From a virus (taxonomy: Duplodnaviria > Heunggongvirae > Uroviricota > Caudoviricetes), in the IMG/VR virus record IMGVR_UViG_2718218360_000017: 43,496 nt of DNA, one strand, 5' to 3'. Positions 26,111 to 36,066 of this stretch are shown here, piece after piece. Each line of letters starts with the position of its first letter. The first letter of the stretch is position 1. The notes under the pieces were generated by a model, which had not been told where the DNA came from, did not search any database, and worked only from the letters and a program-made list of their open reading frames with translations. The translations under genes were made by a program, and so were the position numbers.

Positions 26111-26589
26111 TATTCCTCCCGGCCGGGATAGTGTATTAAATCAGATATGGAGTGGGCTGTAGTCCGGAAGCCTGAATGACACACGGGGACTACAGCCCAA
26201 GAAATGAAAAAAGGCCACGCAGTTGCGCAGCCTGATAAACCCTGGTTAAAATCCACACGATAACAACACAACAATATCAGTATCTCATGCTATTGCCCGA
26301 ACCCATTCGGGCATTTTTTACCCATAAAAAATGCCCCTCCGGAGAGGGGCATTTTTGCATGCACATTCTTTTTCTTGCATGGTGCCGGGTGCCTCCCGGT
26401 GAATTCAGTATCAGCACCTGAATCCGCGATTACCCCATATACCTGGTTGCTGATTGCCCCTCCGCACAGGGGGATTCACCATGCCAGTTTCTTTTAACAA
26501 ACTCCCCGCAAACCAGACAACAGTCAACCGCCTGAATTGTGAGACATTTAAAAAAAAGGCCCGCAAAAGCGAGCCAGGGAAAATAAGTG

Positions 26590-26665
26590 TGGCGCGTTGT
26601 ACTGGATTCGAACCAGCGACCTGGCGATTATGCGTCGCTCGCTCTCACCACTGAGCTAAAGGGCC
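26590..26665 (-). tRNA. tRNA-like sequence with CAU anticodon (Ile2/Met-like); acceptor stem does not pair by eye, so possibly a pseudogene/remnant
   Basis: Minus strand GGCCCTTTAGCTCAGTGGTGAGAGCGAGCGACGCATAATCGCCAGGTCGCTGGTTCGAATCCAGTACAACGCGCCA: canonical D-arm, CAU anticodon loop and GGTTCGAATCC T-arm, but the 3' strand ACAACGC is not complementary to the 5' GGCCCTT. Confidence 0.5.
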
Positions 26666-27511: not shown

Positions 27512-28264
27512 TTATCTTGTCACTTTTCTCAATTGTGTCTCTGCATATGCTTCTTCCTGCCAGCACTTTGTAACCAGTTTATCAATGATATCTGCATATC
27601 CTTTGTACCACTGATAATCCGTCAGGGCAGGTACCAGCTTCTGGACATGATGCCGCGCCAGTGTGGTTGGTAAACGGCTAAACCGGTTACCATTGCAACG
27701 CCCACAAATCTTATAAACAGGCGTACCATGAAGCCGGGTTCTTTTTTCATCCAGGACAATACCTTTACCCTTACACCCTCTGCACGCTGTGCTGACTTCT
27801 CCCTTACCATGACAATGCTGACATAGTTCCTTCACCCACTCTTCCTTGATAACAGATTCCCCGCTTCTGGAGTGTTTCACCACCTCGCGCAATACATTAT
27901 GAAATCCAGTACCAGCACAATGCTCACAGCGAGCCTTACTTGCCGCAGACCTGGAATAATCAGCAAAGGCAAAATTCACAAGGTAAGGGATGATCTGTAA
28001 CCGGGTTTCTTCACTCAATTTATTCAATGTCGGGTTATCCAGTGCCATCGCGTAATTGAGCAGACCTTCAATCGCAAACTGAGGATCCTGAACACCAACT
28101 TTTGCCAGGAATAAGGCAAAACCCAGTGGTGCTTTCGACTGCACCATCCCCTGCGCAGCAATTACATCCGTAATTGTTAAACCACCAGAGCCTGTCGCCG
28201 GTGCGTCATCACTCAGTTTTGGAGATTTTGGGGAGTAATATTTTGGTAAGGCTTCAAGGTTCAT
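27512..28264 (-). CDS. Q: Late antiterminator Q
   Basis: 250 aa with repeated Cys motifs (CEHCAGTG, CQHCHGKG, CRGCKGKG, CGRCNG); directly upstream of pR'/tR'. Confidence 0.8.
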   Translation of the reverse strand: MNLEALPKYYSPKSPKLSDDAPATGSGGLTITDVIAAQGMVQSKAPLGFALFLAKVGVQDPQFAIEGLLNYAMALDNPTLNKLSEETRLQIIPYLVNFAFADYSRSAASKARCEHCAGTGFHNVLREVVKHSRSGESVIKEEWVKELCQHCHGKGEVSTACRGCKGKGIVLDEKRTRLHGTPVYKICGRCNGNRFSRLPTTLARHHVQKLVPALTDYQWYKGYADIIDKLVTKCWQEEAYAETQLRKVTR

Positions 28265-34049: not shown

Positions 34050-34247
34050 TTATGCCGCAGCACTGTTAGTCTTTTGATATAAAGACACGTCAACTTTCAG
34101 TTTCCCGTTAGTAATTTTTTCTAACTGGTACGCTCGGCCTTCAGGAATAATCTCAGGCCACTCTGAAACAGACGGATGCTTAATACCTAGGGCTTCGGCG
34201 GTTTTACAAACTCCGCCGAAATAATTAATCACGTCGGATTTCCGCAT
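34050..34247 (-). CDS. cro: Cro-like HTH repressor (YdaS-type)
   Basis: 65 aa, MRKSDVINYFGGVCKTAEALGIKHPSVSEW.., divergent from cI across the operator region. Confidence 0.6.
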   Translation of the reverse strand: MRKSDVINYFGGVCKTAEALGIKHPSVSEWPEIIPEGRAYQLEKITNGKLKVDVSLYQKTNSAAA

Positions 34248-34269: not shown

Positions 34270-34340
34270 TTAAGCAGGAATGTAGGATATCCAACATATC
34301 AATGTCAAGAATCCTACATGAGCATGTGGTAGGATTGCCT
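34270..34340. promoter_or_regulatory. OR operator cluster with divergent pRM/pR
   Basis: Palindromic sites TGTAGGATATCCAACA (34281-34296), AATCCTACAT-gagc-ATGTGGTAGGATT (34310-34336), plus a partial third site. Confidence 0.6.
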
Positions 34341-34342
34341 AC

Positions 34343-34996
34343 ATGATGAACATGAGTGATCGTATTCGCCAAAGGCGAAAAGAACTGAACCTGACACAAC
34401 AAGCACTGGCTGATTTGACTGGTGTGAACCGTGTCACGGTTACTGGATGGGAAAAGGACGACTACCAACCAAATGGAGCCAACCTTCAAGCCCTAGCCAA
34501 CGCACTTAAATGCGATCCTCTGTGGCTTGTTAGCGGAAAAGGCTCGCCTGAACCAAAGATAAATCTAAAACCTGAAATATTCGCAGTTAAAAAAGTCCCC
34601 CTCATCTCGTGGGTTCAGGCGGGTTCATGGACAATGACGGAGCCTGGTGTCAGGAAAGAAGATGCTGAAGAGTGGGTTTATACTACCGCCCTTGTATCAG
34701 AAATGGCATTTGCACTACGGGTCCGTGGTGATTCAATGACCAATCCCCTCGGCTCACCATCGATACCAGAAGGTTCTATCGTTATCGTAGAGCCAGATAT
34801 TATTGATACAGAGTGTATTAACGGAAAAATCGTTGTTGCCCATATCAATGGTGGGCAAGAAGCGACACTCAAAAAATTTGTTGAGGACTGGCCGAACAGG
34901 TATCTCGTCCCACTAAATCCTAACTATAAAACTATTGAATGCGGTGAGAACTGCAGAATAGTTGGTCTTGTCAAACAAGTAATAATGGATTTTTGA
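34343..34996 (+). CDS. cI: cI-type repressor (HTH plus LexA-like S24 autopeptidase domain)
   Basis: 217 aa; N-terminal HTH (..LNLTQQALADLTGVNRVTVTGWE..), C-terminal Ser/Lys dyad context (..VRGDSM.. / ..ATLKKF..). Confidence 0.9.
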   Translation: MMNMSDRIRQRRKELNLTQQALADLTGVNRVTVTGWEKDDYQPNGANLQALANALKCDPLWLVSGKGSPEPKINLKPEIFAVKKVPLISWVQAGSWTMTEPGVRKEDAEEWVYTTALVSEMAFALRVRGDSMTNPLGSPSIPEGSIVIVEPDIIDTECINGKIVVAHINGGQEATLKKFVEDWPNRYLVPLNPNYKTIECGENCRIVGLVKQVIMDF

Positions 34997-35054
34997 CACA
35001 TCTTCCTCACTATCGCAAAACCGGGGTATCCCCGGTTTTTTTATGAGCCTATCT

Positions 35055-35112
35055 TTTTATGTAGGATAACCAACATAAACTCTTGACACTCACATGTTGG
35101 ATATCCTACATT
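35055..35112. promoter_or_regulatory. OL operators and candidate pL
   Basis: Same operator half-sites as OR (ATGTAGGATAACCAACAT, CATGTTGGATATCCTACAT) overlapping -35 TTGACA (35083-35088) and -10-like TACATT. Confidence 0.55.
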
Positions 35113-35264
35113 TGTTTTTAGAGTTGTGGTGAATGCGCAGGCTGATGCGCGAAAGACATTGCAGCTATTGCGGAAAAGAGCTGTTCGGCGGGGCAATTAA
35201 ACGCCCGTGAGAGTCTGAAATAACCGCAAGCCGGAGATCAGCACCGGTCACCACAACAGCCACT

Positions 35265-35307
35265 GCTTTGGCGGTACCAGTTTGTACACTTGCTTCCGGC
35301 TGGTACC
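35265..35307 (+). terminator. Intrinsic terminator about 160 nt downstream of pL
   Basis: gcggtaccag ...loop... ctggtaccgc followed by tcttttt. Confidence 0.55.
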
Positions 35308-35397
35308 GCTCTTTTTACAAAACAGAGAAGAGCATCACCGGACGACGGGCTCATAACCCAATCCATCCGGGCGGCTGCCACCGCAGGTGTTCTTCTC
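35307..35397 (+). ncRNA. Structured RNA element in the pL leader (candidate antitermination/put-like or nut-like element)
   Basis: Long-range stem ACAAAACAGAGAAGAGCA (35307-35328) pairing with TGTTCTTCTCTGTTTTGT (35376-35397); boxA-like CGCTCTTTTTACAA at its 5' side. Confidence 0.3.
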
Positions 35398-35529
35398 TGT
35401 TTTGTGGAGAAACTAACCGCCCCTACGGGGGCATTTATGGAAATGTAATTGACTCAATAATCGCCGGACGGTGAGGGCTTCCTTTTACCCGAATTCAGCG
35501 CGGTGCAGCGCATATACGTGGAGAACAAA

Positions 35530-36066
35530 ATGTCATTTATTAAAACTTTTTCCGGGAAGCATTTTTATTATGACAGGATAAATAAAGACGACATCGTTAT
35601 TAACGATATCGCGGTTTCCCTTTCAAATATCTGTCGCTTTGCAGGACATCTTTCACACTTCTACAGTGTCGCCCAACATGCGGTGCTTTGCAGCCAGCTG
35701 GTGCCGCAGGAATTTGCTTTTGAAGCTTTAATGCATGATGCAACAGAAGCATATTGCCAGGACATCCCCGCACCACTGAAACGACTTCTTCCTGACTATA
35801 AACGGATGGAAGAAAAAATAGACGCCGTAATCCGTGAGAAATACGGGTTACCCCCAGTTATGAGTACGCCCGTGAAATATGCCGATCTTATCATGCTGGC
35901 AACCGAACGCCGCGATCTCGGGCTTGATGATGGCTCTTTCTGGCCTGTACTGGAAGGCATCCCGGCAACAGAGATGTTCAACGTGATTCCACTGGCACCT
36001 AGCCATGCCTACGGGATGTTTATGGAACGTTTTAACGAGTTATCGGAGTTACACAAATGCGCATGA
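35530..36066 (+). CDS. HD-domain phosphohydrolase (YfdR-like 5'-deoxynucleotidase family)
   Basis: H..HD motif (..FAGHLSHFYSVAQHAVL..ALMHDATEAYCQDIP..); ggagaa Shine-Dalgarno before MSFIKTF (track ORF starts 27 nt upstream). Confidence 0.65.
   Translation: MSFIKTFSGKHFYYDRINKDDIVINDIAVSLSNICRFAGHLSHFYSVAQHAVLCSQLVPQEFAFEALMHDATEAYCQDIPAPLKRLLPDYKRMEEKIDAVIREKYGLPPVMSTPVKYADLIMLATERRDLGLDDGSFWPVLEGIPATEMFNVIPLAPSHAYGMFMERFNELSELHKCA

What the first reader, a model, noticed from the sequence alone, without database searches (positions are those of the whole stretch)
35530..36066. HD-domain 5'-nucleotidase-like protein is the first gene of the early-left operon
The position normally occupied by N encodes a YfdR-like HD phosphohydrolase. 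Combined with the dGTPase near int, the prophage carries two nucleotide-hydrolysing HD enzymes, suggesting nucleotide-pool manipulation during early infection or lysogeny, possibly as defence or counter-defence.
Basis: partly seen in the sequence, partly recalled or inferred. Interest (0 to 1): 0.4.

Follow-up and report, generated by a model that had tools for sequence, protein, structure and literature searches.

The report
Known prophage YfdR behind RNA leader
The gene is an ordinary copy of the already characterised E. coli prophage protein YfdR, and it is not really first in its operon, because a small RNA, a terminator and a folded RNA element lie between the promoter and it.

Summary
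The ORF at 35530-36066 (+) is real. It is the orthologue of E. coli K-12 YfdR (174/178 identical), an HD-domain 5'-deoxynucleotidase that also binds DnaA, so the identification is right and already known.

It is the first protein-coding gene after the repressor-controlled early-left promoter (PL, 35083-35112). That holds only because this mosaic variant lacks yfdP-yfdQ, which precede yfdR in 2670 of about 3000 yfdR-carrying E. coli genomes; 467 have the window's arrangement.

It is not the first gene. The roughly 410-nt leader holds a 193-nt RNA identical in its primer sites to the published sRNA-17 (35123-35315). This ends in a DicF-like hairpin terminator. A covariation-supported three-way-junction RNA follows (35318-35404). 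Its apical hairpin copies 14 nt of the initiator-tRNA anticodon stem-loop.

The dGTPase (40675-41901) is real, but it is a low-GC cargo gene found in only 43 of 5426 genomes. The idea of two HD enzymes working together is not supported.

YfdR most likely acts as an early lytic-phase nucleotide phosphohydrolase. DnaA inhibition and counter-defence remain rivals. The finding itself is ordinary; the leader RNA is the more interesting part.

The parts
34343..34996 (+). cI-like repressor (HTH plus S24 peptidase), same strand as yfdR
   Evidence: Pfam Peptidase_S24 88 bits and HTH_3 58 bits. RefSeq calls it a LexA family protein.
35017..35041 (+). Intrinsic terminator after cI (AAAACCGGGG-TA-CCCCGGTTTTTTT)
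   Evidence: Read directly from the sequence. The equivalent site is annotated as a terminator in phages SfII and Ayreon.
35059..35112 (+). Early-left promoter PL (-35 at 35083-35088, -10 at 35107-35112) with two 18-bp palindromic operators (35059-35076, 35094-35111)
   Evidence: Promoter scan scores 10/12. The operator pattern occurs at 3 sites, counting the one at PR (34280-34297); 0.07 are expected by chance.
35123..35315 (+). Homologue of the 193-nt sRNA-17. Module A (35123-35258) is closed by GUUGUGGUG/CACCACAAC. A DicF-like hairpin terminator follows.
   Evidence: The full-length, RACE, Northern and deletion primers of PMC7719688 match the window exactly, and their orientation shows the RNA is on the + strand. 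Conservation across genomes starts at the predicted +1 of PL.
35270..35316 (+). t1: hairpin GGCGGUACCAG...CUGGUACCGC followed by UCUUUUU. It is terminator-like and related to the 3' hairpin of DicF.
   Evidence: 64 of 65 distinct relatives have a stable hairpin (median dG -21 kcal/mol) plus a T-run here, with different stem sequences. It shares TTTGGCGGTAYCAGTTT...CCGCYCTTTTT with K-12 dicF. Rfam DicF scores 29.6 bits on a variant, below the gathering score of 48.
35318..35404 (+). Motif M, a conserved three-way-junction RNA: P1 of 19 bp, P2, a variable P3 arm, and the apical hairpin 35347-35359 GGGCUCAUAACCC
   Evidence: 95.1% of cells paired against 38-52% with slid partners. Nine pairs change on both sides, reached by 0 of 500 shuffles. 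RNAalifold gives the same fold. U-G at pair 90-167 in 19 of 21 sequences fixes the + strand. 14 nt are identical to the tRNAfMet anticodon stem-loop.
35419..35432 (+). Hairpin GCCCCUACGGGGGC. The mosaic junction at 35419/35420 is where yfdP-yfdQ (1.3 kb) sit in 99.3%-identical relatives.
   Evidence: Alignment with L002. The same hairpin follows yfdQ in relatives and is annotated as a terminator in Ayreon.
35530..36066 (+). yfdR: HD-domain phosphohydrolase (5'-deoxynucleotidase, DnaA-binding protein family)
36057..36407 (+). Next gene, overlapping the yfdR stop by 10 nt. Only its first 42 aa match YfdS, so it is a mosaic.
   Evidence: BLASTP 37/42 identical over residues 1-42 only.
36404..40444 (+). 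Rest of the early-left operon: DUF4752, a 244-aa protein, an Ead/Ea22-like protein, small ORFs and pseudogenes, DUF551, and an HTH (xis-like) gene. There is no exo/bet/gam, no N, and no YfdP, YfdQ or YfdT.
   Evidence: Pfam and PHROG scans and the RefSeq table. Comparisons with YfdS and YfdT were negative.
40675..41901 (+). dGTPase-type HD triphosphohydrolase. This is a separate low-GC cargo gene and not part of the yfdR module.
   Evidence: TIGR01353 313 bits, PADLOC dGTPase 349 bits. GC is 0.30-0.40. It occurs in 43 of 5426 genomes.

Best explanation
The ORF is the orthologue of E. coli YfdR, a small HD-domain metal-dependent nucleotide phosphohydrolase. It belongs to the conserved yfdP-yfdQ-yfdR(-yfdS-yfdT) early-left module of SfV/mEp460/ST64B-type temperate phages.

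In this O111:H8 prophage a mosaic variant lacks yfdP-yfdQ. yfdR has therefore become the first protein-coding gene downstream of the repressor-controlled promoter PL.

Transcription from PL first makes the 193-nt sRNA-17 homologue, which ends at a DicF-like hairpin terminator. Only RNA polymerase that reads through continues across a conserved three-way-junction RNA (motif M) into yfdR. yfdR is translationally coupled to the next gene.

Shown here:
- the identity of the gene;
- an intact and conserved metal site, and the HD fold;
- the promoter and operators;
- the RNA elements and their covariation;
- the linkage of motif M to yfdPQR.

From the literature on the 98%-identical K-12 protein: weak 5'-dNMP phosphatase activity, and binding to DnaA domain I.

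Inferred: YfdR is made only on derepression or infection. Its selected activity is hydrolysis of a (deoxy)nucleotide early in lytic growth, and DnaA binding is secondary.
For: Identity, fold and active site:
- 174/178 identity to b2361; phrog_318 at 366 bits.
- H50, H69, D70 and D119 conserved across 54 representatives at 40-67% identity.

Breadth of the family (this favours catalysis over a host-specific protein contact):
- 22,723 clusters at 50% identity.
- 330 phage records, including lytic and jumbo phages of Caulobacter, Bacillus, Xanthomonas and Stenotrophomonas.

Operon context:
- PL and its operators.
- The yfdQ-yfdR junction is in 2670 genomes and the leader-yfdR junction in 467.
- The functional phage SfII has the same P/Q-less order.
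- Leader elements.
- Motif M is followed by YfdR within 2.6 kb in 98 of 106 instances and by a gene of the yfdPQR module in 102, also in Mixta and Erwinia at 55-70% protein identity.

Literature:
- DnaA binding, and low nucleotide affinities compared with YfbR: PMC4776307.
Against: - No enzyme assay or expression data exist for this copy.
- The K-12 enzyme's affinities for canonical dNMPs are described as much lower than YfbR's, so the true substrate is unknown.
- The only in vivo phenotype reported for yfdR is inhibition of DnaA-dependent initiation on overexpression. That required yfdQ plus yfdS or yfdT, which are absent here.
- Termination at t1 is inferred from structure, not measured.
- In the published sRNA-17 deletion, yfdP and yfdR rose although t1 (35270-35316) was left intact. 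Module A itself, or the inserted cassette, may therefore matter.
Confidence: 0.6

Rival explanations
1. YfdR's real job is to shut down host chromosome initiation. It would bind DnaA domain I (Phe46) and compete with DiaA and DnaB during lytic growth. The HD site would be vestigial or regulatory.
For: - Purified K-12 YfdR binds DnaA, and the binding depends on F46.
- Multicopy yfdQR plus yfdS or yfdT inhibits initiation in vivo and in vitro (PMC4776307).
- The window protein is 98% identical.
Against: - The phenotype needed yfdQ and yfdS or yfdT. This prophage has no yfdQ and no yfdT, and only 42 aa of yfdS.
- Deletion of yfdQRST had no replication phenotype, and the authors themselves note that the overexpression effect might be an artefact.
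- The metal-binding residues are conserved across a very large family in hosts with unrelated DnaA contexts.
Confidence: 0.2
2. YfdR is a counter-defence enzyme. As an early-expressed nucleotidase it would remove a precursor or a signalling or toxic nucleotide used by a host defence system. T5 Dmp does this against Kongming by depleting dAMP.
For: - T5 Dmp is an early dNMP phosphatase and an anti-Kongming factor (bioRxiv 10.1101/2024.12.20.629578).
- YfdR is reported as a dNMPase and sits early in the left operon.
- Its structural neighbours include the phage dATPase DatZ and OxsA.
Against: - T5 Dmp is not homologous to YfdR: hhalign probability 0.2 and no HD domain.
- I found no nucleotide-kinase gene, the reported Kongming trigger, among the window ORFs I scanned. 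This was not an exhaustive search.
- No experiment links YfdR to any defence system, and it has no PADLOC match.
Confidence: 0.12
3. One reading: YfdR and the dGTPase form a two-enzyme system that jointly manipulates the nucleotide pool for defence or counter-defence.
For: - Both are HD-superfamily nucleotide hydrolases on the same strand of one prophage.
Against: - The dGTPase is in 43 of 5426 genomes and yfdR in about 3000.
- The dGTPase region has 30-40% GC against about 48% around it.
- The two genes are 4.6 kb apart, with about a dozen genes between them.
- The YfdR module occurs with the same leader in many phages that lack any dGTPase.
Confidence: 0.04
4. yfdR here is a functionless passenger in a decaying prophage, kept only by recent descent.
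For: - Several neighbouring early-left ORFs are annotated as frameshifted or partial.
- yfdP-yfdQ are missing.
- Deletion in K-12 has no phenotype.
Against: - The ORF is intact, with a good ribosome-binding site and all catalytic residues.
- The same P/Q-less arrangement is found in 467 genomes and in the viable phage SfII.
- The family is under clear purifying selection.
Confidence: 0.04

Closest known systems
E. coli K-12 YfdR (b2361, cryptic prophage CPS-53/KpLE1)
   Same: - 174/178 identical and the same length.
- The same downstream overlap with a yfdS-type start.
- The same family of phage early-left modules.
   Different: - In K-12 the immunity region, PL and the leader are deleted, and yfdP-yfdQ precede yfdR.
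- Here the full promoter, operator and leader are present and yfdP-yfdQ are absent.
YfbR (E. coli HD-domain 5'-deoxynucleotidase; PDB 2paq) and the related small HD hydrolases HDDC2, DatZ and OxsA
   Same: - HD fold and H..HD..D metal site.
- A profile hit to 2paq limited to the HD motif.
   Different: - Only distant similarity.
- Scores are below the Pfam PF12917 and NCBIfam NF003009 cut-offs.
- The K-12 YfdR affinities are reported as much lower.
Atu1052 of Agrobacterium tumefaciens (PDB 2gz4)
   Different: It is a structural-genomics entry of unknown function, so it gives no mechanistic information.
Phage T5 Dmp (pre-early deoxynucleoside-5'-monophosphatase, anti-Kongming factor)
   Same: - An early-expressed phage dNMP phosphatase.
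- It shows that such an activity can be a counter-defence.
   Different: - Not homologous.
- It belongs to a lytic phage that degrades host DNA.
sRNA-17 (E. coli K1 RS218, mEp460-like prophage) and DicF (Qin prophage dicB operon)
   Same: - The leader 35123-35315 carries every published sRNA-17 primer site exactly.
- Its terminal hairpin shares the DicF core and U-run.
- Like dicF, it lies in the early-left operon downstream of the repressor gene, and Qin carries the same flanking modules.
   Different: - The single-stranded 5' part differs from DicF.
- The Rfam DicF model does not reach the window copy at E <= 10.
- sRNA-17 was described as an ArcA-modulated trans-acting sRNA, not as the leader of the yfdPQR operon.
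Lambda N/nut and HK022/HK639 put RNA (elements that occupy the start of the early-left transcript)
   Same: - The position immediately after PL.
- A structured RNA followed by a terminator, as with putL.
   Different: - There is no N-like protein.
- The putL sequences of HK022 and HK639 are not alignable by eye with the leader.
- No test of antitermination was possible.

Membership tests
YfdR family (phrog_318; E. coli b2361) | Close full-length sequence identity to characterised K-12 YfdR | tested here: met
   174/178 identical with no gaps. phrog_318 scores 366 bits over the full length.
YfdR family (phrog_318; E. coli b2361) | H...HD...D metal-binding residues of the HD superfamily | tested here: met
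   H50 is invariant. H69, D70 and D119 are at least 90% conserved in 54 representatives and are all present in the window protein.
YfdR family (phrog_318; E. coli b2361) | All-helical HD-domain fold | tested here: met
YfdR family (phrog_318; E. coli b2361) | 5'-deoxynucleotidase activity and DnaA domain I binding | not testable with these tools
   Reported for the K-12 protein only (PMC4776307, which cites Zimmerman et al. 2008). The 2008 paper could not be fetched.
YfbR-type 5'-deoxynucleotidase (Pfam PF12917, NCBIfam NF003009) | Score at or above the curated model cut-off | tested here: not met
   PF12917 scores 24.4 against 25.9. NF003009 scores 19.9 against 122. Only residues 41-104 match.
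Lambda N-type early antitermination at the first position of the left operon | Small arginine-rich N protein encoded directly after PL | tested here: not met
   The first ORF is the HD protein. No N family was found in any early-left ORF. The ORFs overlapping the leader are broken by indels that are not multiples of three, and PGAP annotates them as frameshifted.
Anti-phage dGTPase (for the gene at 40675-41901) | Match to dGTP triphosphohydrolase and defence dGTPase models | tested here: met
   TIGR01353 scores 313 bits (cut-off 152) and PADLOC dGTPase 349 bits. The narrower NCBIfam antiphage_dGTPase model scores 275.6, below its 400 cut-off.
sRNA-17 (for the leader 35123-35315) | Sequence identity to the RACE-mapped 193-nt RNA | tested here: met
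   Seven primers or probes match exactly, and two match from their second or fifteenth base on. They span 35123-35315.
DicF sRNA (Rfam RF00039) (for the hairpin 35270-35316) | Rfam gathering score of 48 bits | tested here: not met
   No hit in the window at E <= 10. A variant copy (L106) scores 29.6 bits. Only the hairpin core and the U-run align with K-12 dicF.
tRNA (for module A, 35123-35258) | Cloverleaf recognised by tRNA models | tested here: not met
   ARAGORN and Rfam find nothing at this place in the window. Alternative versions of module A in L113 and L106 do reach the Rfam tRNA gathering score (43.9 and 29.5 bits), with an insertion of about 60 nt.

The most novel reading that the evidence does not exclude
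The real first element of this early-left operon is an undescribed cis-acting RNA device.

Its order is:
- a tRNA-like-bounded sRNA (sRNA-17);
- a DicF-type terminator;
- a covarying three-way-junction RNA whose apical hairpin copies the initiator-tRNA anticodon stem-loop (three G-C pairs plus CUCAUAA).

The device would gate or process transcription and translation of the yfdPQR module in place of N/nut. It might act by engaging the 30S P site or IF3, RNase P, or an initiator-tRNA-directed nuclease.

It is present in more than half of complete E. coli genomes and across Enterobacterales.
Probability: 0.3. Interest if true: 0.65.

Novelty: already known. Interest (0 to 1): 0.22.

Why it matters
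For the finding as written, little changes. YfdR is a characterised prophage protein, and this copy adds only a P/Q-less arrangement that is already seen in phage SfII and in 467 E. coli genomes.

Two points are useful.
- The supposed partnership with the dGTPase can be set aside.
- Expression of the very common yfdPQR module appears to be controlled by a long, conserved RNA leader. Its first part is published as a free-standing 'virulence' sRNA (sRNA-17), and its second part (motif M) has no Rfam family or description that I could find.

This reframes sRNA-17 as the 5' leader and terminated product of a phage early operon. It also offers a testable, N-independent control point in a large group of enterobacterial temperate phages.

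Tried and rejected
- **T5 Dmp as a homologue of YfdR.** I recalled it as an HD enzyme. It has no Pfam HD domain and hhalign gives probability 0.2, so I kept it only as a functional analogue.
- **Leader as HK022 or HK639 put RNA.** I fetched both putL regions. No similarity was visible by eye, and no formal model test was done.
- **Rfam.** I searched at gathering and at E <= 10 thresholds on the leader. Only noise came back.
- **ARAGORN.** It found nothing on the window or on the loci with tRNA-like module A variants.
- **A hidden N-like protein in the leader.** The candidates were SfII_35 (112 aa) and the window ORFs 35268-35474 and 35290-35448. I rejected them for four reasons: the translation looks non-genuine; PGAP annotates a frameshift in several genomes; the arm-length indels are not multiples of three; and the region shows RNA covariation.
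- **First AlphaFold model.** It was built from 20 close homologues, reached only pLDDT 64, and its Foldseek search was uninformative. I replaced it with a model from 54 diverse representatives.
- **Sources I could not fetch.** Zimmerman et al. 2008 was not available. The RS218 chromosome is not in the collection, so I established sRNA-17 identity through the paper's primer table instead.
- **K-12 CPS-53 as context for PL.** Its immunity region is deleted, so it was uninformative.

Full report
**Where the window comes from.** The region 34300-37500 is 100% identical to a prophage in E. coli O111:H8 strain 7-55 62A. RefSeq annotates the ORF there as 'yfdR: 5'-deoxynucleotidase'. The prophage is lambdoid in layout:
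- a cro-like gene, 34050-34247 (-);
- a cI-like HTH/S24 repressor, 34343-34996 (+);
- a Q-type late antiterminator, 27512-28264 (-);
- an integrase at the right end, next to the host gene yjjG.

**The observation.** ORF 35530-36066 (+) encodes 178 aa and has a GGAG ribosome-binding site 7 nt upstream.
- It is 174/178 identical to K-12 YfdR (b2361) of cryptic prophage CPS-53.
- It matches phrog_318, 'deoxyribonucleoside 5' monophosphate phosphatase', over its whole length at 366 bits.
- The general YfbR-type models match only residues 41-104 and stay below their cut-offs: Pfam PF12917 scores 24.4 against 25.9, and NCBIfam NF003009 scores 19.9 against 122.
- The closest solved relative is Atu1052 (2gz4), of unknown function.
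- A first model built from close homologues was poor (pLDDT 64). A model from 54 representatives at 40-67% identity reached pLDDT 97.
- H50 is invariant, and H40, H69, D70, E73, D78, K84, D119 and E126 are invariant or at least 90% conserved in that set.
- The family is very large: 22,723 clusters at 50% identity with E <= 1e-3. It is present in 330 phage records, including lytic and jumbo phages of Caulobacter, Bacillus, Xanthomonas, Stenotrophomonas and Pseudomonas.

**What is already known about YfdR.** Noguchi and Katayama (PMC4776307) report the following:
- YfdR is an HD protein and a structural homologue of YfbR. Its nucleotide affinities are much lower (they cite Zimmerman et al. 2008, which I could not fetch).
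- Multicopy yfdQ plus yfdR plus either yfdS or yfdT inhibits replication initiation.
- Deletion of the cluster has no phenotype.

**Is it the first gene of the early-left operon?** A sigma-70 promoter, TTGACA-18-TACATT, lies at 35083-35112 (+). Its mirror image lies at 34308-34279 (-). An 18-bp palindrome, ATGTWGGATAWCCWACAT, occurs only at 34280-34297, 35059-35076 and 35094-35111, where 0.07 sites are expected by chance. These are therefore PR and PL under one repressor. cI ends with a strong hairpin and a run of seven T at 35017-35041, so PRM transcripts should not reach PL (sequence; annotated as a terminator in SfII and Ayreon).

yfdR is the first credible protein-coding ORF after PL in this prophage. 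That is a property of this mosaic variant:
- In 99.3%-identical relatives a 1.3-kb segment carrying yfdP and yfdQ lies between the leader and yfdR. The junction maps to 35419/35420.
- Across 5426 complete E. coli genomes, the yfdQ-yfdR junction is present in 2670 and the leader-yfdR junction in 467.
- Phages mEp460 and ST64B have the order cI, leader, yfdP, yfdQ, yfdR. The viable phage SfII has the P/Q-less order found in the window.

**The leader.** About 410 nt separate PL from the ATG.
- The leader folds far better than shuffles (z = -4.2).
- Roughly 35118-35420 is 95-99% conserved in more than 3000 E. coli genomes, at a median of 2 copies. Similarity begins at the predicted transcription start, whatever immunity region lies upstream.

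It has three parts.

(i) 35123-35315 is the published sRNA-17.
- sRNA-17 is 193 nt and was mapped by RACE and Northern blot in the mEp460-like prophage of E. coli K1 RS218 (PMC7719688).
- The paper's full-length, RACE, Northern and deletion primers match the window exactly. Their orientation shows the RNA is on the + strand.
- In the paper's deletion strain yfdP rose from 0.49 to 47 reads and yfdR from 0 to 8.5.
- The deletion corresponds to window 35148-35265 and leaves the terminal hairpin intact. A cis effect is therefore plausible but not proven.
- The body of this RNA (module A, 35123-35258) is closed by GUUGUGGUG/CACCACAAC.
- Several alternative interiors share that closing stem.
- In two variants the Rfam tRNA model reaches its gathering score, with an insertion of about 60 nt (43.9 and 29.5 bits).
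- Module A also sits among the tRNA genes of P1-type plasmid prophages.
- ARAGORN and Rfam call nothing at this place in the window copy.

(ii) 35270-35316 is a GC-rich hairpin followed by UCUUUUU.
- In 64 of 65 distinct relatives a stable hairpin (median -21 kcal/mol) plus a T-run occupies this place, with different stem sequences.
- It shares TTTGGCGGTAYCAGTTT...CCGCYCTTTTT with K-12 dicF.
- A variant copy scores 29.6 bits on Rfam DicF, below the gathering score of 48.
- The ydfC-dicF-dicB interval of Qin carries the same flanking modules.

(iii) 35318-35404 (motif M) is a three-way junction.
- On 21 diverse sequences, 95.1% of cells pair, against 38-52% when partners are slid.
- Nine pairs change on both sides, which 0 of 500 shuffles reach. 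RNAalifold finds the same fold independently.
- The P3 arm varies in length by up to about 25 nt, in steps that are not multiples of three.
- The U-G pair present in 19 of 21 sequences fixes the strand as +.
- The apical hairpin, CGGGCUCAUAACCC, is identical over 14 nt to the anticodon stem-loop of E. coli initiator tRNA metZ.
- With the loop left free in a pattern scan, 120 of 121 instances keep CAU. These sequences are closely related, and the sample was chosen by a pattern.
- Of 106 instances of motif M with enough downstream sequence, 79 are followed by YfdP-YfdQ (75 of them also by YfdR), 23 by YfdR without P/Q, and 4 by neither.
- The linkage holds in Mixta and Erwinia at 55-70% protein identity.
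- Rfam has no family for this leader. The putL sequences of HK022 and HK639 are not alignable with it by eye.

The element in the 'N position' is therefore RNA, not YfdR.

**The dGTPase.** ORF 40675-41901 (+) is a dGTP triphosphohydrolase: TIGR01353 scores 313 bits and PADLOC dGTPase 349 bits. The stricter NCBIfam antiphage_dGTPase model scores 275.6, below its 400 cut-off.
- It lies after the xis-like HTH gene and converges on int.
- Its GC content is 30-40%, against about 48% in its surroundings.
- It occurs in only 43 of 5426 genomes.

yfdR and its leader occur in thousands of genomes and many phages without it. Co-occurrence in this prophage is therefore best read as chance assembly of a cargo gene with a common early module. 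I infer that the two enzymes act at different stages: the dGTPase in the lysogen, and yfdR after derepression. This was not shown. No convincing promoter upstream of the dGTPase was found by the simple scan.

**How YfdR most likely works.**
- I commit to a metal-dependent nucleotide phosphohydrolase made early in lytic growth by read-through from PL. The metal site is intact and is conserved across a family far broader than any single host's DnaA. The K-12 protein also has measured, though weak, dNMPase activity.
- The physiological substrate is open.
- DnaA binding is the best experimental lead for an alternative role. Its in vivo effect needed yfdQ and yfdS or yfdT, which are absent here.
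- A counter-defence role is conceivable by analogy with T5 Dmp. Dmp is not homologous.

**Verdict.** The reading 'first gene, in place of N, paired with the dGTPase' is only partly supported. The part worth following up is the conserved leader, especially motif M.

Noticed in passing
window 35123-35315 (+): The PL-proximal leader is the published 193-nt sRNA-17 of E. coli K1 RS218. Every primer and probe site from that paper is present, seven matching exactly and two over all but their first bases. The paper treats it as an ArcA-modulated trans-acting sRNA. Here it is the 5' terminated leader of the phage early-left operon. The paper's own deletion strain de-represses the adjacent yfdP and yfdR.
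   Followed up: yes
window 35318-35404 (+): A conserved three-way-junction RNA (motif M) with strong covariation support and no Rfam family. Its apical hairpin is identical over 14 nt to the anticodon stem-loop of initiator tRNA (three G-C pairs plus CUCAUAA). It is linked to yfdPQR in 102 of 106 instances and occurs across Enterobacterales.
   Followed up: partly
window 35123-35258; L113 1077-1203 (-); L106 4364-4488 (-); L006 2501-2636: Module A is closed by an acceptor-stem-like helix, GUUGUGG/CCACAAC. In some prophages the equivalent module reaches the Rfam tRNA gathering score, with an insertion of about 60 nt. The window's version also sits inside the tRNA gene cluster of P1-type plasmid prophages.
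   Followed up: partly
L169 2543-3109 (K-12 Qin, ydfC to dicB) compared with window 35113-35320: The dicF locus of Qin is built from the same modules: an Ayreon-type module A before dicF and an SfII-type module A after it. The window's terminator hairpin shares the DicF core. DicF, sRNA-17 and their relatives may therefore be one family of early-left leader RNAs.
   Followed up: partly
L142 5628-5649 (Planctomycetaceae MAG); L167 (unclassified MAG): The same 22-nt core of motif M occurs outside Enterobacterales. There it is closed by a completely different but perfectly complementary stem, with no YfdPQR nearby. About one chance match is expected in a scan of that size.
   Followed up: no
window 26258-26659: Rfam finds AgvB (anti-GcvB sRNA, 96.5 bits), STnc100 (144.7 bits) and a tRNA (37.3 bits; RefSeq calls it tRNA-Met) clustered downstream of the Q antiterminator, as in Stx-type phages. 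ARAGORN does not call the tRNA.
   Followed up: no
window 40450-42250: The dGTPase gene is a low-GC (30-40%) cargo insertion between the xis-like gene and int. It is present in only 43 of 5426 complete E. coli genomes and is at least 99% identical in 41 of them.
   Followed up: partly
window 36057-36407 (+): The gene after yfdR shares only its first 42 aa (37 identical) with K-12 YfdS and then switches to an unrelated sequence (phrog_614). This is a mosaic joint inside a coding sequence. Its start overlaps the yfdR stop by 10 nt.
   Followed up: partly
window 38624-38800 (+): A 58-aa ORF, annotated as a hypothetical protein in RefSeq, ends in a strongly arginine-rich tail (AAARRAAKRRRRAKR). 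It has no family match. It is far from PL, so it is not positioned like N.
   Followed up: no
right end of window / L001 16974-19259: The prophage integrase abuts the host gene yjjG, itself a pyrimidine 5'-nucleotidase. This is a coincidence of location only. Several early-left ORFs between 38.2 and 39.2 kb are annotated as partial or frameshifted.
   Followed up: no
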